From positions 28 to 64,027 of the forward strand of contig JBJOKQ010000001.1 in assembly GCA_046046005.1 (NCBI GenBank): a stretch of 64,000 nt of DNA. Reading direction: 5' to 3'. Origin of the DNA: Bacteroidota bacterium (GTDB taxonomy: Bacteria; Bacteroidota; Bacteroidia; Palsa-965). A program made the position numbers and the translations under genes. The notes beneath the pieces were generated by a model that was not told where the DNA came from, did no database searches, and was given only the letters and a program-made list of their open reading frames with translations. Shown here piece after piece: positions 1 through 13,960 of the stretch (positions within the stretch are counted from its first letter, which is position 1; each line of letters begins with the position of its first letter).

Positions 1-1938
1 GCCCGTCCGCGTTTGTATATCCACCACAGACCCAACAATTGTTGTAAGAGTCTGTATTCAGAGAAGCGTAACAGTATCGCAGTCCCGGTGCATTTTTGTT
101 CCACCATAAAACAGGTCTTGAAATAAGTACAATCGTGGGAGCATTTCGAATATCTTCTTCGAAGATTTCTGAATTATCGGGCACAGTAAAAAGAGGAAAA
201 TCAACTTCATTGTATGAATGAGTTACCAAAGGCAGCGTTTGGACAAATGTTGATTTCGAATATTCGTAAAAAGCAGGTATAAATAGAAAAGCGGTTTTCG
301 CATGACAAGCCAATCGTATTCTCTTACCTAACAACCGCTCCCAGTTGAGATCATTTCGTAAGCTGCATTGGTCGGAGATCGAATTTCTGATCAATATATC
401 CGTTTGTAAATTTTCTACGGCTGCAAGATCCAGCAGCATATTGAATGGTATAACATAAAAACTATCTACAGATAATCCCACGCGATCGTAAATCAACCTC
501 TTACTACTTGTGTCCTGACTTATTCCAAGTATACCTAATGCTAGCATCCTCAAGTGCTCCTCAATGGCCAACTCATTTTTCTCCGCCTGATTAATTTTAA
601 AAATTGTATTTACGAAACTATTTGTTTGAATTTGAGCATTGCCGGCAACTAAAATATTCCCCATTTCATCTCGACATAAATTGAAAGTTCTATCGCTAAT
701 TGAGCCGTTACCATTCAATCTGTAAATCCAATTTATAGCCCCACTACCTTTGTTAATACTTATGGTGGTGGCGTCAAGTCCTGATGAACTCCCGGTGCTG
801 TTTCCAGTAACAACTATATCCTCACCGTCACTTATTATTGCTTTAGCCTCGTCAAAAGAATCCGCCGAACCGTTGTAAGTCTGCGCCCATGTTATCTGTC
901 CGTTACCTCTATATTTGATGATAAAATAGTCGGAGTTGTTTCCTGCAATTTGAGTAGTACCCGTTACAAAAAAATAATTACCCGCATCCATTACAAGGCA
1001 TCTTGCTAAATCTACACCACCTGTTGTACCGGCATACGCTGTGACCCATTTCTGCAATCCATCTCCTCCTCCATACTTCAAAACAATCGCGTCAGAATTT
1101 GTCGCGCTGGCATAGCCCTGTCCAATTACAATAACATCCTGTGCAGAATTGACGCCGATATCGTGAGCATAATCACTATAGCCATTCTTGTAGCTATAGG
1201 TTGCGCTCCACTTCAAATTTCCCGTCCAATCATAACAAACCGTCAACATTTCAGAAATCCCATTTGTAGCTACGGAATTCCCCGTGATGCAGATGTCTTT
1301 ATTGACTTTTAAAGCGACCCCAATCGCGAAGTCGTTTAGATTACCCGCGCTGTTAAAATGTCGACTCCACTCTAATATTCCATCAACGTTGTATAGCAAG
1401 CAACTGTAGTCGTATTTTCCGCCATTCAAATTACTGTATCCAACAAGCACAATGCCTTCCGCAACAACTTCCATCCCTGTGCAAACATCATCCGATGAAT
1501 TCATTCTATCATAATCATTGCTCCATGTAACATTTCCTGCCGAATCCAACTTAGTAACAGCAATGTCTCTTCCATTACTTGTTGACGTTGTTCCTGCTAC
1601 ATAAACGCCGAACGAACTATCAACAACAATTGCAACCGGGAAGTCGTTTTCATTTGCTGAGCCGCTAATGGTTGTGGTCCAACGCAAAATACTATCGGGA
1701 GCAAATGACGTAATCAACCAGTCTGTATTACCATTGTTAGAAGTCGTGCTTGCAACGTAAATATTTCCTAGTAAATCTGTATAACCACTGAAACCTCATT
1801 GCTTATTGTAGCGCCGTTGTCTTCATTCCACAACAATGTTGTTTGGGCTTGCAAATGAATGTTACTCATAAGGATTAGTAGTGCAAGAACCAGCTTTGAA
1901 GTAATGTTACGTAACGGAAGAAATAATGAAAGAATCAT
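1..1938 (-). pseudogene. Secreted SBBP-type beta-propeller repeat protein. The 5' end is in the window and the 3' end runs off it. The reading frame is broken by a frameshift near 1771-1795.
   Basis: The minus-strand ATG at 1938 gives a signal peptide (…KLVLALLILMSNIHLQA|QTT) that hits TAG at 1768-1770. A second frame opens after TGA at 1796-1798 and stays open down to position 1. It encodes about 7 repeats of roughly 45 aa (…GNIYVAGTT…DIAVTKLDSAGNVTW…, …DIVVTGNS…DATTISINKGSG…) typical of SBBP beta-propeller repeats. These are followed by a non-repeat Cys-containing region (…NNCWVCGGYTNADG). The ORF track lists nothing here because the ORF is partial and frame-split. Confidence 0.6.
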
Positions 1939-4322: not shown

Positions 4323-4970
4323 ATGAAACTGAAAGCGATATTTCTGATATTGTTGTGTGCATTTTTTGCCGCAGGAGATCTCGGTGCTGAAGAAATGAAG
4401 AAGAAGCGCCGCAAGAAGAAAAAGAGAAGAGGAAAAGTTGTGGCGTTCAAAGCCGGTCAAATGGATGTACAGGCCGGAGGAGGATTTGCCGTTAATACGA
4501 ATTATTCCAAATCGGATTATTCGATTTACGGAACAACTGAAACCAAAGGCGGATTCCCTTTCAGCATTCGTGCTGAATACGGAGTAACTGATTTTCTCGG
4601 AATCGGCTTGTGGTATGGTATGTACAAAGACAAGATCACAATCACAGATGTAACGGCGCCTACAAACATTTACGGTTACGAACATAAGTACATGCACCTT
4701 TGTGCTCGTCCTGCCTTTCACGTTCCGCTCGGAATGGCGAAGCTCGATCCTTACGTTGCAGTTCCATTTGGTTTGAACAAAGTGAAAGCAACTCCATTCT
4801 ATAATGAAGGAGGTGTAAACCTTGTTCAGGAGCCATTGAAATCAGGTTTCGCCTGGGCGATTCACGGTGGCGCTAATTATTACTTCACTGACAACATCGG
4901 CGCTTTCGTTGAAGGCGGTTACGGCCAATGGTTACCGATGGTGAACTTTGGTATAACGGCGAAGTTTTAA
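4323..4970 (+). CDS. Outer-membrane beta-barrel protein (OmpW/OmpA-like porin family) with a Lys/Arg-rich stretch after the signal peptide
   Basis: Signal peptide MKLKAIFLILLCAFFAAG. Alternating hydrophobic beta-strand pattern and a C-terminal aromatic residue (…ITAKF), typical of small OM barrels. An unusual KKKRRKKKKRRGK tract follows the signal peptide. Confidence 0.55.
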   Translation: MKLKAIFLILLCAFFAAGDLGAEEMKKKRRKKKKRRGKVVAFKAGQMDVQAGGGFAVNTNYSKSDYSIYGTTETKGGFPFSIRAEYGVTDFLGIGLWYGMYKDKITITDVTAPTNIYGYEHKYMHLCARPAFHVPLGMAKLDPYVAVPFGLNKVKATPFYNEGGVNLVQEPLKSGFAWAIHGGANYYFTDNIGAFVEGGYGQWLPMVNFGITAKF

Positions 4971-4991
4971 GTACTGACTCGTTTTATAGAA

Positions 4992-5019
4992 TCCCGCTGT
5001 TACACGGCGGGATTTTTTA
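4992..5019 (+). terminator. Rho-independent terminator after the OMP gene
   Basis: TCCCGC-tgttacacg-GCGGGA followed by TTTTTT. Confidence 0.6.
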
Positions 5020-5027
5020 TTTCTAAC

Positions 5028-5360
5028 AACCACGGCGACACGGAGAGTTTAAAAACAACCACGGAGGCACGGAGAGTTTAAAACAACCACGGTGACACGG
5101 AGAAAAAACTTTCTCTCTTACCCGAAACGATTAGTAAAATAATATCTCCGTGTCTCTATGGTGATTTCCTTTTATACGGAGAGATATTTGTTGTTTCTCA
5201 TAACCACACTCCGACAAGCTCAGTGCGGGCTCTGGCGCGGAGATATTAATTAAATAACCACGGTGACACGGAGAAAAAACTTTCTTTCTTACCCGAAACG
5301 ATTAGTAGAATAATATCGCCGTGTCTCCGTGGTGATTTCCTTTTATCTTGTCATTTCTCC
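5028..5360. repeat. Non-coding repeat cluster. Three short tandem copies (28-29-bp period) of AACCACGGnGnCACGGAGA lie at 5028-5103. They are followed by two copies (171-bp period, 5085-5175 and 5256-5346) of an approximately 90-bp element with 20-25-bp terminal inverted repeats. There are at least 9 CACGGAGA-type motifs in both orientations.
   Basis: Direct reading: AACCACGGCGACACGGAGAG at 5028, AACCACGGAGGCACGGAGAG at 5057 and AACCACGGTGACACGGAGA at 5085 and 5256. Each long copy ends with the reverse-complement arm ATCTCCGTGTCTCTATGGTG or TCGCCGTGTCTCCGTGGTG. There is no ORF of 60 aa or more on either strand. Confidence 0.8.
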
Positions 5361-5382
5361 GTGGTGCTCGTCTGCTGTATTA

Positions 5383-5417
5383 AAACAAAAAATCCCGCTC
5401 GATAAGCTGAGCGGGAC
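5383..5417 (-). terminator. Rho-independent terminator downstream of the SMC-like ATPase gene
   Basis: On the minus strand: TCCCGCTC-agcttatc-GAGCGGGA followed by TTTTTTGTTTT. Confidence 0.7.
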
Positions 5418-5443
5418 TTTTCATTACTAACCTAAACTAAACA

Positions 5444-8400
5444 CTAATTCTGCGTTTGTAACGCATGAATATAGTCTTCAAGTTTTTCAACGATGTTGTC
5501 GTAACTGAACTGTGCAAGCGGAGTCGGATTGATGTTGTGGAACTCCGGATTGTTATTCTTACGCAACGTATAAATGTTCTGCTTTCCTTCTTCGAAACGT
5601 CCGATCGGATCAATCGTCATTGTCAGAATCTGGTAGTCGTAGTTCTTCGCCAGCTCATAAAGCATATCGAAGTTTTCTCCCAGACCCGCAACTTCGTCGA
5701 TGGTCATGAAACGAACACCTTTGCGAATCTTTCTGTCTTTGCGGCTCAAACGATCGCTGTCGATGATAGATAGACGCGCAATACACAGAAGCGCAAGCAT
5801 CGTATAGTTCTGACCGTTTGATCCCGGTGCGTCTTCTCCCATTGGCGTTTTAAGGCTGATGGAAAGATCGAAGTACGATTTCGGATTCGTCAGTTTCTTG
5901 ATGTCCGGCTTCACGTTCTTTCCGTCGCTGTGCTCAAGGAATGCTTTGAGAATGATCGCATCCGCTCCTTCTCCTTCGCTCTCAAACATCTTGAACAATC
6001 CAACGTTTGCCGCTTTCGCAGCGATGTTCTTGTTCAATGAACGAATCCAGCTGATCGGATACGACTTTGATGGATCGAAGTTGATTTCAACGTAGTGACC
6101 GCCGGAAATTTTATTCGAACGGAAGAACTCGCGCATGTCATCAATACGATCGCGATACTCTGTATACACCTCTTCGATTTTCGAGAAAATACCGTTGATG
6201 ATCTTCAACTTGTGGTCGTTGATCTCGTTCATCTTCTGGTTGATATTCTTCAGGTGTTCTTCGATATCACTTGCAAGATCTTCTTCAACACGATCCGGAT
6301 TCTGAATGATCTTCGGCAACATTACTTCTGCAAGAGTCTGGAAATCGTATTTGTGATTGCCTTTCAAACGCTCATCATCAATGTTGAACTTGTCGTCCTT
6401 CATGATAGCGTCGTAATTCGACTCGTATGCTTTCTGCGTGGTGATCACAGTAACTTTCAGTTTGTTCACCTGTGATTCTTCCACCTGTTCCACCGCTTCT
6501 TCCGGATTGAATTCTCCGATAAGTTGTGTGTAACGTGCAAGAACTTCCTGATAGCGATTCTCCAATGCAGGCATCTGTTCCATCAATCCGATCAAACGTT
6601 GTTCGAGTGATCCCTGACGACGTGAAATGTCCTGTAAACGCTGTGAGAATGCGTTATAAAGCATCTTCGTGCTGGAGCCGTGTTCTTTTTCAATCTCACG
6701 GATTTCCTTGTTCACTTTCTCAAGACTCTGTTCTCCTTCATTGGCTTTGAGATATGTCTGAACATCTTTCTGCCAATCCGCAAAGCGCTCATCAAGCTGC
6801 TTCTTGGTGCTCTGGAAATTCTTGAGTTCACGTTCTTTCTCCGGAAGCTGATTCACTTCAAGCTGCTTAATCTGACCTTCAATAGCCATCAAGCCGCCTT
6901 GTGAATTGGAAATGATATCATCCGCTTCACGAAGTTTCTGCAATGCATCTTCCCAGTTCTTCTTCGCTTCATCGTAAACCAAACGAAGATTGTTCTTCGG
7001 ATTGGTGTACAGATCCATGATCATTTCAAATTCGTCTTTCGACATGATCAGTGAATCATCAGGAGAGAAATTCTCCAGGTCTTCACGCTTCAGCCATGCA
7101 TCGGAAACAGAAGTATTGAATCCGAATTCCATGAGATGTTCGCGAAGTGTGCGGTGTGTATTGCGTTCCGCATAAAGTTTCTCGAGTTCTTTCTCGATCG
7201 TATCTCCATACTTCTGCAATTCTTTCTCAATCGTGTCCGGATTGTTGAACATCTGTTTCGGAACATAAGTGATGTATTCCATCACTCCGCTCATATCAAC
7301 CCAGAATCCTTTTGAATCCTTGTCAACAGGTTTCAGATTCTTGTAAACTGCTTCCGGATTCGGAATGAAACGTTCTCCGTCTGTTTTCTCTCCCGGTTTT
7401 TTCGTTCCGAGAGTTTTGAAATGCATGAGAACAGATTCTTCTTCCTTCGTCAGCTTTCCTGCATTGCGGATTGCCCACTGAACGACAGAATCTTTGTTGT
7501 CGCTGTCGAACAACGGCATCAATTGCTCAAGACGATTGATTTCGCCTTCGAGCTGATCCATAATTCCGTCATACTCTGCCTGAGCCATGCGGTAATCGCG
7601 CGACCAGGAAGATTCTGCGAATGCTTCTGCAATTCCTTTGCGATTGAGGAAGTCCACAAACTCGCGCATCTTCTGACGTTCGCGCAATGTGCCGTCCTGC
7701 TTCTGGAATTGTTCTTTTACAAGCTCAACCGTTTTGTAAATACGCACCCAACCTTCAGCGGATTTTACTTTGTTCCACTTCGCACTCGCTTCGTCGTATT
7801 CGTTTTGAGCAATGGTATATGCTTTCTCATAAGAAGCGCGATTCTTCTCAGCGAAGTCGCGGTTCTTCTTTCTGTTTTCAAGTTCCGCTTCGAGACGCTC
7901 GCGCTCACCTGTAATGCTGTCGAGTTCGCGCTCCACAGCATCCATGTTGAGTTCATTCACGCGCTTCTCCAATTGAATCTGCTGGAGATTCACGTGAGCA
8001 GTTTCTTTTTGCGTACGCACAAGGTCACGACCGATTACTTCACGCTGATGATAAGCCCATGAAGTTTCGAGCAACAGCGCACGATGCGTTGCAGCGTCAC
8101 GTTTCTTTTTGTCTTCAAGCAATGAAAGAAGTCGATCCTTTTTCATCTTCACCGTTTCATACACGCGTGCACGACGCTTGTATTCTTCGTGTGCTTCTTC
8201 AATTTCTTTCTTGCGCTTTTCGTACTCTTTGTTCTGGTCGTCGTCGTTGGCAAAGAGGAAGTTTTTCAAATCTTCCGACTTCGCTCCGATTCCTTTACCA
8301 CGCGCGAACGATTGAAGAATCTGCGCAAATGTTTTCAGTTTCTTATCGTCGTGACTGAAGTCCGTTGAAAGAATCTGGTTATTGAACAGGATGCGATGAA

Positions 8401-8938
8401 ACTCTGCTGTACGCTGATTGAACTGCTTCATGATGAAGCCGCGTTTCTCAAAATGCTCGCGCATTTTATCAATCGGCAGAATCTGATTGTTCGGAAGGAA
8501 ATCGCGATACAACAGGAATTGATCCATTGCTTCGAGATTCATTTCCGCTTCCTGATTGAAGTCGTGTCCTTTCTGGATGATGAACGGATACACCGAACGC
8601 GCATTGGTCTGAATATGCGTTCCCACGATGATGAACTTGTTGTGTTCAACTTCAACATTGGCAAATGCATATCCGTAGTAACCCTGACCGGCGTCGCCAC
8701 CTTGTTTGAGAACGACACCTTCAACGGTACGTTTCTCGGTGGTCATTACATCCGTTCCAGATTCCCAGAATTCTTTTTTCGCAACGAAAATCAGCTGGAG
8801 AAGATCGGCGATTACCGACTTACCGGAACCGGAACCTCCTGTGAAATCCGTACGCAACGGGTGCAACAGATAATCGCAGTTGTTGTGATAAATCACACCT
8901 ACTGTCGATAGAGAGAATATTCTTGGATATTGTTTCAT
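5444..8938 (-). CDS. SMC-like ATPase of the MksB/JetC family (Walker A at the N-terminus, long coiled coils, Walker B/D-loop at the C-terminus)
   Basis: 1164 aa. N-terminal P-loop TGGSGSGKSVIADLLQ. About 900 aa of heptad-rich E/K/R/Q sequence. C-terminal signature …YTMLALLCIARLS… and Walker B FMTIDEVAGLG. It is the last gene of a three-gene operon, after kleisin-like and small acidic partners. Confidence 0.75.
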   Translation of the reverse strand: MKQYPRIFSLSTVGVIYHNNCDYLLHPLRTDFTGGSGSGKSVIADLLQLIFVAKKEFWESGTDVMTTEKRTVEGVVLKQGGDAGQGYYGYAFANVEVEHNKFIIVGTHIQTNARSVYPFIIQKGHDFNQEAEMNLEAMDQFLLYRDFLPNNQILPIDKMREHFEKRGFIMKQFNQRTAEFHRILFNNQILSTDFSHDDKKLKTFAQILQSFARGKGIGAKSEDLKNFLFANDDDQNKEYEKRKKEIEEAHEEYKRRARVYETVKMKKDRLLSLLEDKKKRDAATHRALLLETSWAYHQREVIGRDLVRTQKETAHVNLQQIQLEKRVNELNMDAVERELDSITGERERLEAELENRKKNRDFAEKNRASYEKAYTIAQNEYDEASAKWNKVKSAEGWVRIYKTVELVKEQFQKQDGTLRERQKMREFVDFLNRKGIAEAFAESSWSRDYRMAQAEYDGIMDQLEGEINRLEQLMPLFDSDNKDSVVQWAIRNAGKLTKEEESVLMHFKTLGTKKPGEKTDGERFIPNPEAVYKNLKPVDKDSKGFWVDMSGVMEYITYVPKQMFNNPDTIEKELQKYGDTIEKELEKLYAERNTHRTLREHLMEFGFNTSVSDAWLKREDLENFSPDDSLIMSKDEFEMIMDLYTNPKNNLRLVYDEAKKNWEDALQKLREADDIISNSQGGLMAIEGQIKQLEVNQLPEKERELKNFQSTKKQLDERFADWQKDVQTYLKANEGEQSLEKVNKEIREIEKEHGSSTKMLYNAFSQRLQDISRRQGSLEQRLIGLMEQMPALENRYQEVLARYTQLIGEFNPEEAVEQVEESQVNKLKVTVITTQKAYESNYDAIMKDDKFNIDDERLKGNHKYDFQTLAEVMLPKIIQNPDRVEEDLASDIEEHLKNINQKMNEINDHKLKIINGIFSKIEEVYTEYRDRIDDMREFFRSNKISGGHYVEINFDPSKSYPISWIRSLNKNIAAKAANVGLFKMFESEGEGADAIILKAFLEHSDGKNVKPDIKKLTNPKSYFDLSISLKTPMGEDAPGSNGQNYTMLALLCIARLSIIDSDRLSRKDRKIRKGVRFMTIDEVAGLGENFDMLYELAKNYDYQILTMTIDPIGRFEEGKQNIYTLRKNNNPEFHNINPTPLAQFSYDNIVEKLEDYIHALQTQN

Positions 8939-8962
8939 GTCTGATAGTTCAGTGTTGGATCA

Positions 8963-9661
8963 TTATTCGCTGTCGCCTTCTTCCACCGGATACAATCCGC
9001 CGGTGCGCTCTTCAATCGAATTCGTTTCATCAATCAGACGATCGATGTTGTGAATTTCGTAAGAGTACATGGTGAACAGTCGATCAATTGAAGGCATGAT
9101 TTCAAAGAGTTCTTTGTTGCGCGGATCGAAATGAATCCAGCCCATACGTTCGAATTCCTTGAGTGAGTTACGCACCCATTCGTCAATGGTGTTCTCGTCG
9201 ATTTCTGTTGCTTCTTTTTCGCGACGACGTGCAAAAAGGTTGTAGATGAAATTCTTGTACTCTTCGTTGGTCTTGAGGAGCTGAATGAAATCCGGAACGT
9301 AAATGTCGTTGATGAAATATTTGTCGATGCGGTGAATTTTCAGAAGAAGAATTCCAAGCAACGTGTGTTCAGGTGTCAACTTCTTCGCGCGCGACTTTAC
9401 GATACCGTGTGTTTCTTCATCCATTTCGAGGAAGTAGTAACGCGTGTAATCTGAACCCTTACCGGCGAGATTCACTTTGAAAAGATTGCGGTAGTACGCA
9501 CGAAGTTCATCTTCGTACTTCTCCACAAAATTGAACAGCTCTACCTGATGCGGATAGTTCTGAATATGTTGTCCGCTCTTGAACATGAAATCAACGTCTG
9601 CGAACAACGCTTCTGCTTCATCCGTCTCTAGGAAGCCGTACTTTTTATTTGCATTTTCCAT
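8963..9661 (-). CDS. MksE/JetB-like small acidic subunit (DUF4194-like)
   Basis: 232 aa with an acidic C-terminal tail (…YPVEEGDSE). It lies between the kleisin-like and SMC-like genes and overlaps the upstream gene by 34 nt, which suggests translational coupling. Confidence 0.55.
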   Translation of the reverse strand: MENANKKYGFLETDEAEALFADVDFMFKSGQHIQNYPHQVELFNFVEKYEDELRAYYRNLFKVNLAGKGSDYTRYYFLEMDEETHGIVKSRAKKLTPEHTLLGILLLKIHRIDKYFINDIYVPDFIQLLKTNEEYKNFIYNLFARRREKEATEIDENTIDEWVRNSLKEFERMGWIHFDPRNKELFEIMPSIDRLFTMYSYEIHNIDRLIDETNSIEERTGGLYPVEEGDSE

Positions 9662-11025
9662 ATGCCGATGTGTGGGTGTTTAGGATCCAAATTAAATTCT
9701 TCGCTCACGGTTACTTCGTAATCCGGATGTTTGGTGAATTCTTTCAGCACCAATGTTGCTTCCTTGATTGCCTGTTCAAAATCATTGTCCTTGTACATGA
9801 TTTTGAAATAATAATCAGAGAAGTTGATTTTCTTTTTCTTTTCCACGTCAGAAGAAATGATGTTGAACCATTCTTCAATGCGTCTCTCACGAGCCAGATA
9901 CTGTCTGCGCAATTCCGCCTGACGCGCAAGATCATCTTCATCCCAACTCAAGTTCTGCAACTGAATCGGAGGCGGCTCAAGTAGTTGCAGGTAATCAATT
10001 CCCACAACGCGGGAACGATCGCTGTAAATTTCTTTCTGAGAAATATTCTTCGGAAGGAAAACTTCCATCTCGTGCACCTTGCGATCCTTCAGCTTTTTCG
10101 TTCTGTAGAATTTGCTGGTTGAGTTTTTCATCAGGTACAGCAGGAACGATTCAATCTTACGATCAAAATCGCGCTTCTCGAAATCGTTGTAAAGCTTATT
10201 GATCTTCGGTTTGATTCTGTCGATCGTGTGCGACACGTTGATCAAACGCATTTCAATGTCTTTGAAATACATGCGCACATCGCGCTTCATTTCGCGAAAC
10301 TCAAACTCCACACCAAGATCTGCGTCGTCAAGCAGTTGCTTGATATCATCTTTCGAAGAGAATGCACTTGAAAGTTTATCCGCTTGTTCTTTGATGCGAT
10401 CAAGCAGTGCTTCACAGCCAATCAGCATTTCGCGGAAGTTGTCGTACTCGTTCTTCACGAGATCATTCAACTGCTCAACAGTATCTTCGATCTGCGCCTG
10501 AAGCGCGCGAAGCTGTGCGGAAATATCTGCCTTGTGCTTGAAGAACTGCGTGTGATACCAGTGACGGAAATCTTCGAGGTTCTCGAGTTTCAATCCGAGC
10601 AGCATCACAAGATCGTTGAACGTCTTCTGAATCTGTGAAGGATTGATTGCAGTGTGAACTTCGCGCTCCAGCATGTCGCAGAAATTTTCTGCATACGTGC
10701 TCAGCTGATATGTTTTCTCTTCGATGTTCTTGTCGATGAAGTGACGCAGCAGGCGGTGAATGGTTTCATCGTACTTCTGGGTTTCTTCTCCGCGCGCTGA
10801 TGCCTGACCGAGTTCTGCGTAAACCTGTTTGATGGTTTCCACAATGATGCGCTCAGGAAAAGTGCGCTCAATGATTCCGGCACGAACCTTCTGGAAAATA
10901 GCCAGAACGATCAATCCGTCTTCCTGACGCGGCACGAGAAGATTGTATCTTTCGCGCAGAATTTTCGGGAAGTGAAGCGGACGTGTGGTGCGTAGCGCCG
11001 GCGGGATTAGGGATAATTGCTCCAT
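9628..11025 (-). CDS. MksF/JetA-like kleisin-type subunit (DUF3375-like)
   Basis: About 465 aa, largely helical with coiled-coil segments. It is the first gene of the operon. The ORF track starts at TTG 11034; the first ATG is at 11025 (MEQLS…). Its size and position match JetA/MksF. Confidence 0.5.
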   Translation of the reverse strand: MEQLSLIPPALRTTRPLHFPKILRERYNLLVPRQEDGLIVLAIFQKVRAGIIERTFPERIIVETIKQVYAELGQASARGEETQKYDETIHRLLRHFIDKNIEEKTYQLSTYAENFCDMLEREVHTAINPSQIQKTFNDLVMLLGLKLENLEDFRHWYHTQFFKHKADISAQLRALQAQIEDTVEQLNDLVKNEYDNFREMLIGCEALLDRIKEQADKLSSAFSSKDDIKQLLDDADLGVEFEFREMKRDVRMYFKDIEMRLINVSHTIDRIKPKINKLYNDFEKRDFDRKIESFLLYLMKNSTSKFYRTKKLKDRKVHEMEVFLPKNISQKEIYSDRSRVVGIDYLQLLEPPPIQLQNLSWDEDDLARQAELRRQYLARERRIEEWFNIISSDVEKKKKINFSDYYFKIMYKDNDFEQAIKEATLVLKEFTKHPDYEVTVSEEFNLDPKHPHIGIWKMQIKSTAS

Positions 11026-11169
11026 AGAGAACAAATATATCTTTCCGCCCCAATGAAAACAGGTGTTGTTAACAGATTGTTCAAACCTTGTTTTTGGCTC
11101 TGAAAACTCACTTGCAATGTTGAAATCTTTTGTGTTTTTTTACTTGATAAAAACAGGGATTTTTCCTAA

Positions 11170-12692: not shown

Positions 12693-13937
12693 ATGATCCT
12701 CAATTACATCTGGATTGGCTTTTTCGTAATCGGTTTTGTTGTGGCTCTGATTCGCACAGTTTACGGCTATGCAGTCGGCAGCGAAACAGACGCGCATGTA
12801 TTTGCCGATATCGGAATGGGGACATTTACATCAGCGAAAACCGCATTCACCGTTGCGCTTGGACTGACAGGCACACTCACACTGTGGATGGGACTAATGC
12901 GCGTAGGGGAAAAAGCGGGCGCAGTAAATTTTCTTGGACGTTTGATCGGCCCTTTCTTCGCGCATTTATTTCCGGGTGTTCCGAAAGGTCATGCCGCTCA
13001 CGGACAAATCATGCTGAACTTTTCTGCAAACATGCTTGGGCTCAGCAATGCCGCAACACCAATGGGCTTGAAGGCCATGCAAAGTCTGCAGGACATCAAC
13101 GAAGAAAAAGAAACGGCATCGAATTCCATGATCATGTTTCTTGCGTTGAATACAGCTGGGCTCACACTGATTCCGGTAACCATTCTTGCTTTGCGCGCAA
13201 CAAATGGTTCAGCAAATCCTACTGATGTTTTCGTTCCGATTCTGATTACTTCATTCTGTGCTACACTCATTGCCATTCTCACTGTTGCTTTGCGTCAACG
13301 CATTCTCACATCAAAGCTCATCATGTGGCTTGGAGGCGGAATTGCTTTGATGGCAGGAGTGATCGCGTTGTTCATGAATCTTTCTCCGCACGCCAGAACG
13401 GAAGTTTCAACTGTCGGAGGAAATTTCATTTTGTTCGGCGTGATCGTTGCCTTTCTCATTGCAGCGGCATTGAAGAAAATAAATGTATACAGTGAATTTA
13501 TCGAAGGCGCGAAAGAAGGATTCGGCACGATGGTAAAAATTGTTCCGTATCTGGTGGCAATGATTGTGGCAATCGGAGTCTTCAGAAACTGCGGTGCCAT
13601 GGATTACATGAGCAAGGGATTGGAATGGATCTGCAATTTGTTTCAGGCGGATACGCAATTCGTTCCTGCAATCCCGGTGGCGCTCATGAAACCATTGAGC
13701 GGTGGTGGTACAGAAGGATTAACAGTAGATATTCTGGTGAAATACGGTCCAGATTCCTTCGTTGGCCGACTTGCATCCATCATGTATGCTTCTGCCGATA
13801 CAACCTTCTACATCGTTGCACTTTATTTCGGATCTGTTGGCGTGCGCAATACACGATATGCGGTAACGGCTGGCCTGGTAGCCGATTTCGCAGGAATTCT
13901 CGCGGCGATTTTTGTGGCGTATCTTTTCTTCGGGTAA
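12693..13937 (+). CDS. Nucleoside-recognition (Gate) domain membrane protein, SpmA/SpmB-like
   Basis: 414 aa polytopic membrane protein with two Gate-like halves (…NMLGLSNAATPMGLKAM… and …SGGGTEGL…) typical of spore-maturation SpmA/B-type proteins. Confidence 0.6.
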   Translation: MILNYIWIGFFVIGFVVALIRTVYGYAVGSETDAHVFADIGMGTFTSAKTAFTVALGLTGTLTLWMGLMRVGEKAGAVNFLGRLIGPFFAHLFPGVPKGHAAHGQIMLNFSANMLGLSNAATPMGLKAMQSLQDINEEKETASNSMIMFLALNTAGLTLIPVTILALRATNGSANPTDVFVPILITSFCATLIAILTVALRQRILTSKLIMWLGGGIALMAGVIALFMNLSPHARTEVSTVGGNFILFGVIVAFLIAAALKKINVYSEFIEGAKEGFGTMVKIVPYLVAMIVAIGVFRNCGAMDYMSKGLEWICNLFQADTQFVPAIPVALMKPLSGGGTEGLTVDILVKYGPDSFVGRLASIMYASADTTFYIVALYFGSVGVRNTRYAVTAGLVADFAGILAAIFVAYLFFG

Positions 13938-13960
13938 CCACCATACATAGTATCTTTACA

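What the first reader, a model, noticed from the sequence alone, without database searches (positions are those of the whole stretch)
5028..5360. Iteron-like CACGGAGA motif cluster and hairpin elements where JetD would be expected
Directly downstream of the SMC-like gene's terminator lie three 28-29-bp tandem copies of AACCACGGnGnCACGGAGA. They are followed by two 171-bp-spaced copies of a ~90-bp element whose ends are 20-25-bp inverted repeats of the same motif. At least nine CACGGAGA/TCTCCGTG octamers occur in both orientations within 340 bp, with no coding capacity. The architecture resembles iterons or binding-site arrays, MITE-like foldback elements, or a structured sRNA locus. Its position, exactly where the fourth Wadjet gene normally sits, suggests it could mark a deletion or insertion scar, or a loading or regulatory site for the adjacent condensin-like complex. 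The final repeat unit includes the jetC terminator hairpin, and a degenerate copy of that hairpin occurs at 5211-5232. This suggests the whole 3' end region was duplicated in tandem.
Basis: seen in the sequence. Interest (0 to 1): 0.55.

Follow-up and report, generated by a model that had tools for sequence, protein, structure and literature searches.

The report
Orphan foldback repeats of GxxExxY cassettes
The repeat cluster is real, but it is unrelated to the neighbouring condensin genes. It is a nest of gene-less, partly decayed copies of a hairpin-forming repeat found in many bacterial phyla, whose complete form brackets a small nuclease gene of unknown function, an association I could not find described anywhere.

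Summary
Window 5025-5366 holds 14 CACGGAGA-like octamers, 7 of them exact, and there are no other exact copies in the 64 kb. They form three tandem 28/29-bp arm units, two 95-bp foldbacks (94% identical, 171 bp apart) and one solo reverse arm. The cluster lies between the convergent terminators of an OMP gene and a MukB-like gene.

The condensin/JetD reading fails. Four related species keep a three-gene MksF/E/B operon, have no JetD-like gene and lack the cluster. PADLOC finds no Wadjet.

The arm (TTC)ACCACGGAGACACGGAGA is a cross-phylum dispersed repeat. The motif also occurs in viral contigs.

Longer versions enclose a ~124-aa GxxExxY gene (PF13366), whose fold resembles Cas4 and lambda exonuclease. 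Conversely, 46 of 80 GxxExxY genes fetched by protein alone are bracketed by these inverted arrays, and 10 more have one arm.

Between two Bacteroides species the arms are 88-97% identical, against 67% for the enclosed coding sequence. One empty site was found.

The window copies are ORF-less orphans, and sister strains have lost one 171-bp unit. That the cassette is selfish or mobile is inferred, not shown. Rfam and the searched literature hold no description.

The parts
4988..5016 (+). Context: intrinsic terminator of the OMP_b-brl gene (4323-4970). It forms the left border of the gene-free gap.
   Evidence: Terminator scan: 13-bp stem followed by a T-run. Pfam PF13505 for the gene.
5025..5053 (+). 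Forward arm unit F1: AACA-ACCACGGCGA-CACGGAGA-GTTTAAA (two octamers).
   Evidence: the repeat finder family D2 and TRF.
5054..5082 (+). Forward arm unit F2: ACCACGGAGG-CACGGAGA. It is the only window arm that passes the strict family pattern.
5082..5110 (+). Forward arm unit F3. It is the third tandem copy and also the left arm of foldback A.
5081..5175 (.). Foldback A (95 bp). Its right arm, at 5136-5167, has decayed (CATAGAGA). It folds weakly as a hairpin (DNA dG -10.7 kcal/mol, z -2.0).
5176..5251 (.). 76-bp spacer holding two degenerate arm fragments: TACGGAGAGATAT at 5175-5187 and CGCGGAGATATTAAT at 5236-5250. It is unrelated to the sequence that follows foldback B.
   Evidence: (I9, I20)
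5252..5346 (.). Foldback B (95 bp), which is intact. Arms lie at 5253-5281 (+) and 5309-5338 (-), with a 41-nt loop. DNA hairpin dG -20 kcal/mol, z -6.2. An A-rich 5' flank and a T-rich 3' flank give it the look of a bidirectional terminator.
   Evidence: (I5)
5345..5366 (-). Solo reverse arm R3 (read on the minus strand: CACCACGGAGAAATGACAAGAT). A two-octamer arm sits at the equivalent place, next to the mksB terminator, in the related species L131.
   Evidence: (D3)
5393..5416 (-). Context: intrinsic terminator of the MukB-like gene (5444-8938, minus strand). It forms the right border of the gap.
   Evidence: (I14)
5444..11034 (-). Context, not part of the element: the three-gene MksF-like (9628-11034), MksE (8963-9661) and MukB/MksB-like (5444-8938) operon.

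Best explanation
Window 5025-5366 is a nest of gene-less, partly decayed copies of a widespread foldback repeat. Its arms are inverted arrays of 8-9-nt units: ACC-RCNGAG-N-CRCNGAG..., most commonly (TTC)ACCACGGAGACACGGAGA.

The complete form of this element is a cassette of about 450 bp. In it the same two arms tightly bracket a ~124-aa GxxExxY gene (PF13366/TIGR04256), a minimal PD-(D/E)XK nuclease with a Cas4/lambda-exonuclease-like fold.

Most likely the arms act at the DNA level, as paired recognition or hairpin-forming ends of a selfish, horizontally spreading cassette. The far more numerous gene-less foldbacks would be its non-autonomous or left-over copies, comparable to REPINs with their RAYT or to 23S-rRNA intervening sequences with their small ORF.

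In this genome the copies sit in a gene-free gap between two convergent terminators and have no functional tie to the condensin operon. They are decaying and recombine with each other, as the 171-bp deletion in sister strains shows. At most they add hairpins that reinforce bidirectional termination.

Shown:
- the window repeats belong to the cross-phylum repeat family;
- the arms and the GxxExxY gene are associated;
- the arms are conserved above neutral sites between two Bacteroides lineages;
- filled and empty sites exist;
- the local copy number is polymorphic.

Inferred:
- the cassette is mobile;
- the nuclease acts on the arms;
- the action is at the DNA level rather than the RNA level.
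For: (1) Cross-phylum repeat. The titles name about 15 phyla, including Acidobacteriota, Planctomycetota, Chloroflexota, Bacteroidota, Pseudomonadota, Nitrospirota, Gemmatimonadota and Lentisphaerota.
- In 62 cases a forward copy is followed 40-300 bp later by a reverse copy. The consensus is TTCACCACGGAGACACGGAGA(n)CACGGAGAA...TTCTCCGTG(n)CTCCGTGTCTCCGTGGTGAA.
- Interiors are unrelated between genomes. Within a genome they are 70-87% alike (L041/L074; L044/L061/L062).
- 43 viral contigs also carry the motif, 14 of them as foldbacks.

(2) Cargo. Six of the 120 loci have a GxxExxY gene next to the arms. In L050, L069, L088, L110 and L119 the arms enclose it; in L054 the gene has arms of a different 9-mer. 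The gene scores PF13366 at E 6e-42 and TIGR04256 at 6e-42.

(3) Reverse test. 80 GxxExxY genes were fetched from metagenomes by protein pattern only.
- 46 have a forward arm upstream and a reverse arm downstream, and 10 more have one arm.
- Background is 7 arm matches in about 100 kb of the same loci.
- The arms hug the ORF: arm offsets from the tblastn match are mostly about 25-155 nt upstream and 34-190 nt downstream.
- The same arms occur in isolates: Bacteroides finegoldii, Bernardetia, Gemmatirosa and Sphingomonas.

(4) Constraint on the arms. At the same locus in two Bacteroides species the arms are 87.5% and 96.7% identical. The coding sequence is 66.7% identical (third codon positions 42%) and the spacers 35-52%.
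- The two arms of one element always share flavour: 26 CAC/CAC, 20 CGC/CGC, 0 mixed.
- Every variable arm position is concordant above independence.

(5) Foreign and insertable.
- Cassette GC is 0.48-0.51 against 0.56-0.59 in the flanks.
- The radA|FAD-gene junction is filled in four Bacteroides genomes and empty in Bacteroides sp. 51, where the intergenic region is 13 bp.

(6) DNA level rather than RNA level. Arm mismatches show no strand bias. G-U-compatible mismatches number 23 on the sense strand against 27 on the antisense strand in the core (p=0.67), and 66 against 68 overall.

(7) Nuclease. D...ExK is invariant in alignments A3 and A5. The AF2 model has pLDDT 93.9. Its best PDB folds are Cas4 SSO0001 (4ic1; E 4e-4, TM 0.56), lambda exonuclease and RecE.

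(8) Local evidence.
- The cluster is present in all near-identical strains, with a 171-bp recombinational deletion in L002 and L007.
- It is absent from related species.
- No Mks or OMP relatives occur in 203 motif or cargo loci.
Against: - No target-site duplication was seen at any junction.
- No near-identical, recent copies were found within one genome; the best pair is 87% identical.
- The interiors of gene-less foldbacks contain no recognisable remnant of the GxxExxY gene (best E 0.03). They are therefore not simple internal-deletion derivatives.
- Arm flavour does not follow GxxExxY protein similarity (0.609 vs 0.606, p=0.17). This argues against a protein that co-evolves with its own arms.
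- No convincing GxxExxY gene was found in the window or in 250 kb of DNA from this clade; the single weak hit (E 0.001, window 279-404) is judged spurious. The host's genome-wide copy number could not be measured, and the 64-kb window has only this one cluster.
- Only one of the seven window arms passes the strict family pattern; the others differ at one position of the first octamer.
- The 80 test genes are the closest relatives of a query taken from a motif-bearing locus, so the 58-70% figure may hold for a large subfamily only. GxxExxY genes at about 40% identity (Prevotella, Fusobacteria) are flanked by direct repeats instead.
- At the Bacteroides locus a third lineage (sp. 214) carries arms of another flavour and period, so conservation of the arms is not universal.
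Confidence: 0.72

Rival explanations
1. The element works at the RNA level. The foldbacks would be transcribed hairpins: bidirectional terminators, mRNA-stabilising or RNase III processing stems as in 23S-rRNA intervening sequences, or a small RNA locus. The long-range stem of the full cassette would release or protect the GxxExxY mRNA.
For: - Predicted folds are strong (z -6.8 and -6.5 for the region; foldback B z -6.2).
- Terminator-like hits occur at the arms: 7 found against 0.9 expected.
- In Bacteroidota copies the arms are flanked by an A-run and a T-run (L109, L032, window foldback B).
- The Coxiella intervening sequence is a 428-nt selfish element with a 28-bp terminal stem and a small ORF, cut out by RNase III. 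It has lower GC than its host and was acquired horizontally (PMC4990558).
Against: - There is no excess of G-U-compatible over A-C mismatches on the sense strand of 35-46 cassettes (23 vs 27; 66 vs 68).
- No Rfam family matches, at gathering score or at E<=10.
- In most phyla the flanks are TTC...GAA, which is the wrong polarity for an intrinsic terminator.
- The window cluster lies between two canonical terminators, so little transcription should reach it.
Confidence: 0.15
2. The cluster is functionally tied to the adjacent SMC-like system. It would be a scar where a fourth Wadjet gene (JetD) was lost, or a loading or regulatory site for the condensin-like complex.
For: Position immediately downstream of the MukB-like gene. 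A two-octamer arm is also present next to the mksB terminator in the related species L131.
Against: - PADLOC gives no JetA/B/C/D match even at E<=1. Pfam gives MksE and MukB_N.
- Four related species have the same three genes and no fourth. The DNA downstream is variable: an IS3 insertion, small unrelated ORFs without Pfam or PADLOC hits, or other filler.
- The motif occurs in at least 120 genome loci and 43 viral loci without any Mks homologue.
Confidence: 0.03
3. It is a REP/REPIN population served by a Y1 (RAYT-type) transposase.
For: Inverted doublets forming hairpins are the REPIN architecture (PMC3116915). Sister strains carry a 157-aa Y1_Tnp gene about 9 kb away.
Against: - That gene is absent from the window itself, and its flanks in L001 carry no CACGGAGA-type arm.
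- The arms are not self-palindromic REPs and lack the GTAG head (sequence; the GTAG criterion is from my own knowledge).
- The gene found between the arms in six of the 120 motif loci, and bracketed by them in 46 of 80 further loci, is a PD-(D/E)XK nuclease, not a Y1 transposase.
Confidence: 0.03
4. It is an array of iterons or transcription-factor binding sites: a replication origin or an operator for the flanking genes.
For: Three direct repeats at 28-29-bp spacing plus inverted copies.
Against: - The context is chromosomal housekeeping genes and tRNAs, with no initiator gene.
- The site lies downstream of both neighbouring genes, not upstream.
- The same motif is dispersed over many phyla in unrelated contexts.
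Confidence: 0.02
5. It is a chance cluster or an assembly artefact.
For: Short-read assemblies can mis-join repeats. L002 and L007 differ by one unit.
Against: The structure is identical in six independent assemblies from different samples. There are 7 exact octamers in 325 bp against 1.6 expected in 64 kb.
Confidence: 0.01

Closest known systems
REPIN-RAYT systems (REP doublets forming hairpins, with a REP-associated tyrosine transposase)
   Same: - Short inverted doublets form hairpins and are dispersed in intergenic DNA.
- They are far more numerous than the single small protein gene that is itself flanked by the same repeats in inverted orientation.
- The partner gene can be vertically inherited at a fixed locus, as at the Bacteroides radA locus.
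   Different: - The partner is a ~124-aa PD-(D/E)XK (Cas4/lambda-exonuclease-like) protein, not an HUH/Y1 transposase.
- The arms are arrays of tandem 8-9-nt units, not individually palindromic REPs with a GTAG head.
- Nearly the same arm sequence recurs across about 15 phyla, whereas REP sequences are lineage-specific.
- Transposition has not been shown.
23S rRNA intervening sequences (IVS) with the S23p ORF, e.g. Coxiella burnetii (PMC4990558)
   Same: - A ~430-450-bp selfish unit made of ~28-bp terminal inverted repeats around a ~120-aa ORF of unknown function.
- Lower GC than the host, sporadic distribution and horizontal acquisition followed by vertical maintenance.
   Different: - It lies in intergenic DNA between protein genes, not inside 23S rRNA helices 25 or 45.
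- The ORF family is different: GxxExxY nuclease rather than a four-helix-bundle S23p.
- There is no evidence here for RNase III excision, and mismatch statistics give no RNA-strand signal.
MITEs (miniature inverted-repeat transposable elements)
   Same: Terminal inverted repeats, small size (60-300 bp), no coding capacity, intergenic location, several copies per genome with related interiors.
   Different: - No target-site duplications were found.
- No parent IS with a recognised transposase was found.
- Interiors are not deletion derivatives of the gene-bearing form.
Cyanobacterial STRR (short tandemly repeated repetitive heptamers) and other simple intergenic tandem repeats
   Same: Tandem 7-9-nt units in intergenic DNA of unknown function (comparison from my own knowledge, not tested).
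   Different: Here only 2-4 units occur per arm. They are always organised as inverted pairs and are linked to a specific gene family.
Wadjet / JetABCD and MksBEF(G)
   Same: The neighbouring operon has an SMC-like ATPase, a MukE/MksE kleisin-associated protein and a third upstream gene taken as MksF-like from its position only; it has no family hit.
   Different: The repeat is not part of it. There is no JetD/MksG gene, no PADLOC Wadjet hit, and the operon is three-gene throughout the clade.

Membership tests
   F2 (5058) passes the strict pattern. F1, F3, F4, R1 and R2 differ at one or two positions, mostly in the first octamer (CACGGCGA, CACGGTGA). Three exact ACCACGGNGACACGGAGA copies lie in the window (F1, F3, F4).
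   Arms at 5082-5110/5136-5167 and at 5253-5281/5309-5338. Foldback B has DNA dG -20 kcal/mol, z -6.2.
   The loops are 41 nt and there is no ORF. tblastn finds no convincing GxxExxY gene in the window or in 250 kb of clade DNA; one weak hit (E 0.001, window 279-404) is judged spurious. The window copies belong to the gene-less class, as do 62 foldback pairs among the 120 genome loci.
MITE | Terminal inverted repeats on a short non-coding element | tested here: met
   (I2, I5)
MITE | Target-site duplication flanking the element | tested here: not met
   No direct repeats were seen at the junctions of the window elements, of 62 foldbacks, of the cassettes, or at the Bacteroides filled and empty sites.
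MITE | Autonomous partner IS with the same TIRs and a transposase | tested here: not met
   The only recurrent enclosed gene is a PD-(D/E)XK nuclease with no known transposase activity.
MITE | Many copies in the same genome | not testable with these tools
   Only 64 kb of the host, plus flanks, is available, and it holds one cluster.
REP / REPIN-RAYT | A Y1 (RAYT) gene flanked by the repeat | tested here: not met
   The Y1_Tnp gene of L001 and L003 has no arm in its flanks, and the gene is absent from the window.
REP / REPIN-RAYT | Inverted doublet of the repeat forming a hairpin | tested here: met
Wadjet (JetABCD) | JetA, JetB and JetC profile matches | tested here: not met
   PADLOC: no Jet model at E<=1, only weak LmuB and ZorA coiled-coil hits.
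Wadjet (JetABCD) | A JetD (Toprim/DUF2220-type) gene in the operon | tested here: not met
   No ORF lies in the 473-bp gap. There is no fourth gene in L131, L133, L135 or L137. The small downstream ORFs have no Pfam or PADLOC hit.
Iterons of a replication origin | Direct repeats next to a replication-initiator gene on a replicon origin | tested here: not met
   The neighbours are an OMP gene and the mks operon. The 589-kb chromosomal contig context holds housekeeping genes.
23S rRNA intervening sequence | Insertion within 23S rRNA helix 25 or 45 and excision by RNase III | tested here: not met
   There is no rRNA in the window (Rfam), and the element is intergenic. RNase III cleavage is not testable here.
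Any Rfam RNA family | Covariance-model match | tested here: not met
   Nothing at gathering score in the window or in 18 motif loci. At E<=10 only spurious sub-threshold hits appear.

The most novel reading that the evidence does not exclude
GxxExxY genes and their inverted octamer-array arms form a previously undescribed, cross-phylum class of selfish element. It would be driven by a minimal Cas4/RecB-like PD-(D/E)XK nuclease and would be functionally analogous to REPIN-RAYT, with a large population of gene-less foldbacks as its non-autonomous copies or excision footprints. The window's cluster would belong to that population. This would give the 'function unknown' family PF13366/TIGR04256 (7,990 of 8,000 scored candidates at E<=1e-10 in one search) a testable role, and it would give a source for a common type of intergenic hairpin in soil, sediment and gut bacteria.
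Probability: 0.3. Interest if true: 0.8.

Novelty: new variant of a known kind. Interest (0 to 1): 0.58.

Why it matters
Locally the finding is deflationary. The repeats say nothing about the condensin operon, and the 'missing JetD' premise is wrong for this clade.

The by-product is more interesting. A nearly invariant ~20-nt arm built of tandem octamers recurs in about 15 bacterial phyla and in viral contigs. It brackets a very large family of small nuclease genes of unknown function. Between two Bacteroides lineages it is conserved better than the gene it encloses.

If the link is functional, it defines a new nuclease-associated repeat system that can be tested in cultivable Bacteroides, Sphingomonas and Geothrix. 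It would also explain many small bogus ORFs and hairpins in metagenome annotations. If it is already known to curators, the result is simply a correct classification of an ordinary dispersed repeat.

Tried and rejected
- Rfam, at gathering score and at E<=10, on the window and on 18 motif loci: nothing.
- Literature searches: nothing relevant. Terms tried were the arm sequences in eight spellings, GxxExxY, PDDEXK_3, PF13366, TIGR04256, TIGR02436 and PF05635.
- RAYT idea: the Y1_Tnp gene is absent from the window and is not flanked by the motif.
- A transposase-bearing parent element between distant arm pairs: the longer pairs enclose GxxExxY or ordinary genes such as a TonB-C protein in L038.
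- Gene remnants inside gene-less foldbacks: none.
- Co-variation of arm flavour with the protein tree: none.
- RNA-strand bias of arm mismatches: none.
- Clean empty site for a gene-less foldback (L073 vs L098): ambiguous, because both carry arms of different flavour in the same gap.
- Crude ORF-context statistics for 62 foldbacks: mostly between co-directional genes. The simple ORF caller put 15 'inside ORFs' in GC-rich DNA, so no conclusion was drawn.
- PDB sequence search for GxxExxY: no hit. Only the fold search was informative.
- Phage database: no GxxExxY gene. Plasmid database: 8 of 72,556 records, mostly chromids.
Full report
**1. What is in the window**

The region 5025-5366 lies in a 473-bp gap between two convergent genes.
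- On the left is an outer-membrane beta-barrel gene (4323-4970, plus strand, PF13505), followed by a canonical terminator at 4988-5016.
- On the right is a 1164-aa MukB/SMC-like gene (5444-8938, minus strand), with its terminator at 5393-5416.

The gap contains the following:
- three tandem 28/29-bp units, AACA-ACCACGGnGn-CACGGAGA-tail, at 5025, 5054 and 5082;
- two 95-bp foldbacks at 5081-5175 and 5252-5346, 94% identical and 171 bp apart;
- a solo reverse arm at 5345-5366.

All seven exact CACGGAGA octamers of the 64-kb window are here, against 1.6 expected per 64 kb. With one mismatch allowed there are fourteen. Each arm is itself a tandem pair of octamers.

Foldback B is an excellent hairpin (DNA dG -20 kcal/mol, z -6.2). 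Foldback A has a decayed right arm (z -2.0). The forward arms alone do not fold.

The two '171-bp units' match only over the 95-bp element, and their tails do not align. This is therefore two copies of one element, not a tandem duplication that includes the terminator.

**2. Strain and species comparison**

The flanking OMP protein is encoded, with identical sequence, on 14 public contigs.
- Five assemblies (L001, L003-L006) have the same gap as the window.
- Two (L002, L007) are exactly 171 bp shorter. They carry one hybrid foldback whose left part matches copy A and whose right part matches copy B. This is the signature of recombination between the two copies.

Homologues of the MukB-like protein were found at 90, 81, 79 and 72% identity, and their loci were fetched.
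- All keep the same three genes: a 465-aa upstream gene, MksE (PF21980), and the MukB-like ATPase (PF04310 in many homologues).
- None has a fourth, JetD-like gene.
- What follows the ATPase gene varies: an IS3 transposase gene, small ORFs without Pfam or PADLOC hits, or about 330 bp of unrelated DNA.
- None has the CACGGAGA cluster, although L131 keeps a single two-octamer arm beside the terminator.

PADLOC gives no Wadjet hit for any of the three proteins, even at E<=1. The premise 'where JetD would be expected' therefore does not hold for this clade, and the cluster is a lineage-specific addition.

**3. The motif is a cross-phylum foldback repeat**

The collection holding one genome per species was scanned for ACCACGGNGACACGGAGA. 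This pattern has 17 fixed bases, so by my own estimate, assuming uniform base composition, about 70 chance hits are expected in the whole collection.

The record titles name, among others, Acidobacteriota, Planctomycetota, Chloroflexota, Bacteroidota, Alpha-, Beta- and Gammaproteobacteria, Nitrospirota, Geobacteraceae, Armatimonadota, Gemmatimonadota, Lentisphaerota, Elusimicrobiota and Sumerlaeota. They include the isolates Geothrix limicola and Longilinea arvoryzae.

In 62 cases a forward copy is followed 40-300 bp later by a reverse copy. The consensus is:

TTC-ACCACGGAGA-CACGGAGA-(n)CACGGAGAA ... loop ... TTCTCCGTG(n)-CTCCGTG-TCTCCGTGGT-GAA

- Loops range from a few bases to about 250 nt.
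- Loops are unrelated between genomes, but 70-87% alike between copies in one genome.
- 43 IMG/VR viral contigs also carry the motif, 14 as foldbacks, with up to three on one contig.
- None of 203 motif or cargo loci encodes a relative of the window's Mks proteins or OMP.
- Rfam has no matching family.

**4. The full-length form carries a nuclease gene**

Where the two arms are 420-630 bp apart they enclose a ~120-aa ORF of one family (L050, L069, L110, L119). L088 and L054 show the same arrangement.
- The ORF scores PF13366 (PDDEXK_3) at E 6e-42 and TIGR04256 'GxxExxY protein' at 6e-42.
- D...ExK is invariant.
- No PDB sequence relative exists.
- A confident AlphaFold model (pLDDT 93.9) is closest to Cas4 SSO0001 (4ic1; E 4e-4, TM 0.56), lambda exonuclease, LHK-Exo and RecE.

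As the reverse test, 80 GxxExxY genes were fetched from metagenomes by protein pattern only.
- With a strict arm pattern, 46 have a forward arm upstream and a reverse arm downstream, and 10 more have one arm.
- Most of the rest show looser variants by eye.
- Background is 7 matches in about 100 kb of the same loci.
- The arms hug the ORF, giving a unit of roughly 450 bp.
- The octamer 'flavour' varies: CACGGAGA, CACAGAGA, CGCAGAGA, CGCCGAGA, CACGAAGA, CGCAAAGT.
- The two arms of one element always agree: 26 CAC/CAC, 20 CGC/CGC, 0 mixed. Every variable position is concordant above independence.

Cultured organisms show the same arrangement:
- Bacteroides finegoldii (between radA and an FAD-protein gene), Bernardetia, Gemmatirosa;
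- Sphingomonas parapaucimobilis (between fabD and fabG).

One caveat applies. The 80 genes are the nearest relatives of a query taken from a motif locus. GxxExxY genes at about 40% identity in Prevotella and Fusobacteria are flanked by direct repeats instead.

**5. Evidence bearing on mechanism**

(a) Constraint on the arms. At the orthologous Bacteroides locus, two species differ at 33% of coding-sequence positions (58% of third codon positions) and at about half of the spacer positions. They differ at only 4 of 32 left-arm positions and 1 of 30 right-arm positions. A third lineage (sp. 214) has, at the same site, arms of another flavour with a 9-nt period, and a GxxExxY gene only 60-63% identical.

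(b) Foreign composition. Cassette GC is 0.48-0.51 against 0.56-0.59 in the flanks. An earlier survey noted multiple transfers for PF13366 (PMC3424549).

(c) Filled and empty sites. Four Bacteroides genomes have the cassette between radA and the FAD gene. Bacteroides sp. 51 has a 13-bp gap reading TGA-TTCACCAT-AAGCT-ATG.
- The empty site keeps exactly the outer 7-8 nt of the left arm.
- This is either a preferred target word or an excision footprint.
- The lineages are about equidistant (radA DNA 75-77% identical), so the polarity is open.

(d) No target-site duplications were seen anywhere.

(e) No RNA-strand signal. Arm mismatches compatible with G-U pairing are as frequent on the antisense strand as on the sense strand (23 vs 27 in the core; 66 vs 68 overall).

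(f) Arm flavour does not follow protein similarity.

(g) Gene-less foldback interiors contain no gene remnants.

Taken together, the arms are functional and are linked to the nuclease gene, and the unit behaves like a horizontally acquired insertion. Whether the nuclease mobilises the arms, merely homes into pre-existing foldbacks, or is regulated by them is not settled. I rate a DNA-level selfish-cassette model as the most likely, an RNA-level hairpin role second, and everything tied to the condensin operon as very unlikely.

**6. Comparison with known systems**

- REPIN-RAYT (PMC3116915, PMC3337134) is the closest analogue in architecture. It has hairpin doublets, a small gene flanked by the same repeats, and gene-less copies in excess. 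The enzyme class, the arm structure and the cross-phylum sequence constancy all differ.
- 23S-rRNA intervening sequences (PMC4990558) are the closest analogue in size and layout. The location and the ORF family differ, and RNase III excision is untested here.
- MITE membership fails on target-site duplications and on a transposase-bearing parent.
- I found no description of the arm sequence, or of repeats around GxxExxY genes, in 8 million searchable papers. Subscription journals and database curators' notes could not be searched, so 'undescribed' is provisional.

**7. Verdict**

The window feature is an ordinary-looking, decaying, gene-less cluster of a dispersed repeat, and it sits where it does by accident. 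The family it belongs to is a cross-phylum octamer-array foldback coupled to a Cas4-like mini-nuclease gene. That family is a new variant of the repeat-plus-small-enzyme theme and deserves a proper genome-wide and biochemical test.

Noticed in passing
L002 10648-10951 and L007 682-985, versus window 5081-5422: Two sister-strain assemblies lack exactly one 171-bp unit. They carry a hybrid foldback whose left part matches copy A and whose right part matches copy B, which indicates recombination between the two 95-bp copies.
   Followed up: yes
L001 19856-20329 and L003 12354-12827; window 13937-13960: Sister strains carry a 157-aa Y1_Tnp (PF01797, IS200-like) gene between the Gate-domain gene and the Ribul_P_3_epim/CBS gene. 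The window has no such gene there. Its flanks carry no CACGGAGA arm.
   Followed up: partly
L135 8529-9353: In a related species (MksB 79% identical) an IS3-type transposase gene (rve) sits immediately downstream of the MukB-like gene. The DNA after this operon thus recurrently receives insertions.
   Followed up: no
L228 3868-3882, versus L219 1423-1902, L226, L229 and L231: The empty radA|FAD-gene junction in Bacteroides sp. 51 reads TGA-TTCACCAT-AAGCT-ATG. It keeps the outer 7-8 nt of the cassette's left arm. This could be a target word or an excision footprint and is unresolved.
   Followed up: partly
L231 3870-4372: At the same Bacteroides site, sp. 214 carries a GxxExxY cassette whose arms have another flavour and a 9-nt period (AACCGCAGAGTTACGCGGAGTTGCGCAGAG). 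Its gene is only 60-63% identical. This reflects either an independent insertion at the same site or a concerted change of both arms.
   Followed up: partly
L054 690-1230; L045 around 7900; L067; L097 around 4990; L042 620-700: Other tandem 8-9-mers occur beside or instead of CACGGAGA arms: CACCGATGA arms around a GxxExxY gene, CACTGATGA, ATCGGGTG x4 and TGCGGATTG x4. This suggests a wider class of octamer-array repeats.
   Followed up: no
L278 (Prevotella nigrescens) 250-900; L279 (Fusobacteria bacterium ZRK30) 300-880: Distant GxxExxY genes (about 40% identity) are flanked by direct 25-45-nt repeats rather than inverted arrays. This looks att-like or cassette-array-like.
   Followed up: no
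L234 5857-9337; L233; L240; L257; L268 (IMG/VR contigs): Predicted viral contigs carry two or more CACGGAGA foldbacks each (three in L234), spaced by a gene or so, and no GxxExxY gene.
   Followed up: partly
L131 8496-8964: In the closest other species, the gap after the MukB-like gene holds about 330 bp of unrelated DNA with small ORFs of about 78-89 aa on both strands (no Pfam hit). It also holds one two-octamer arm (CAACCACGGAGGCGCAAAGA) beside the terminator.
   Followed up: partly
L109 6615-6701; L032 974-1107; window 5252-5346: In Bacteroidota copies the usual TTC...GAA flanks are replaced by an A-run and a T-run. This gives the foldback the form of a bidirectional intrinsic terminator and may reflect lineage-specific exaptation.
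   Followed up: no
window 9628-9661: The upstream 468-aa gene (taken as MksF-like from its position only; no family hit) and the MksE gene overlap by 34 nt. This overlap is kept in all related loci and is consistent with translational coupling.
   Followed up: no
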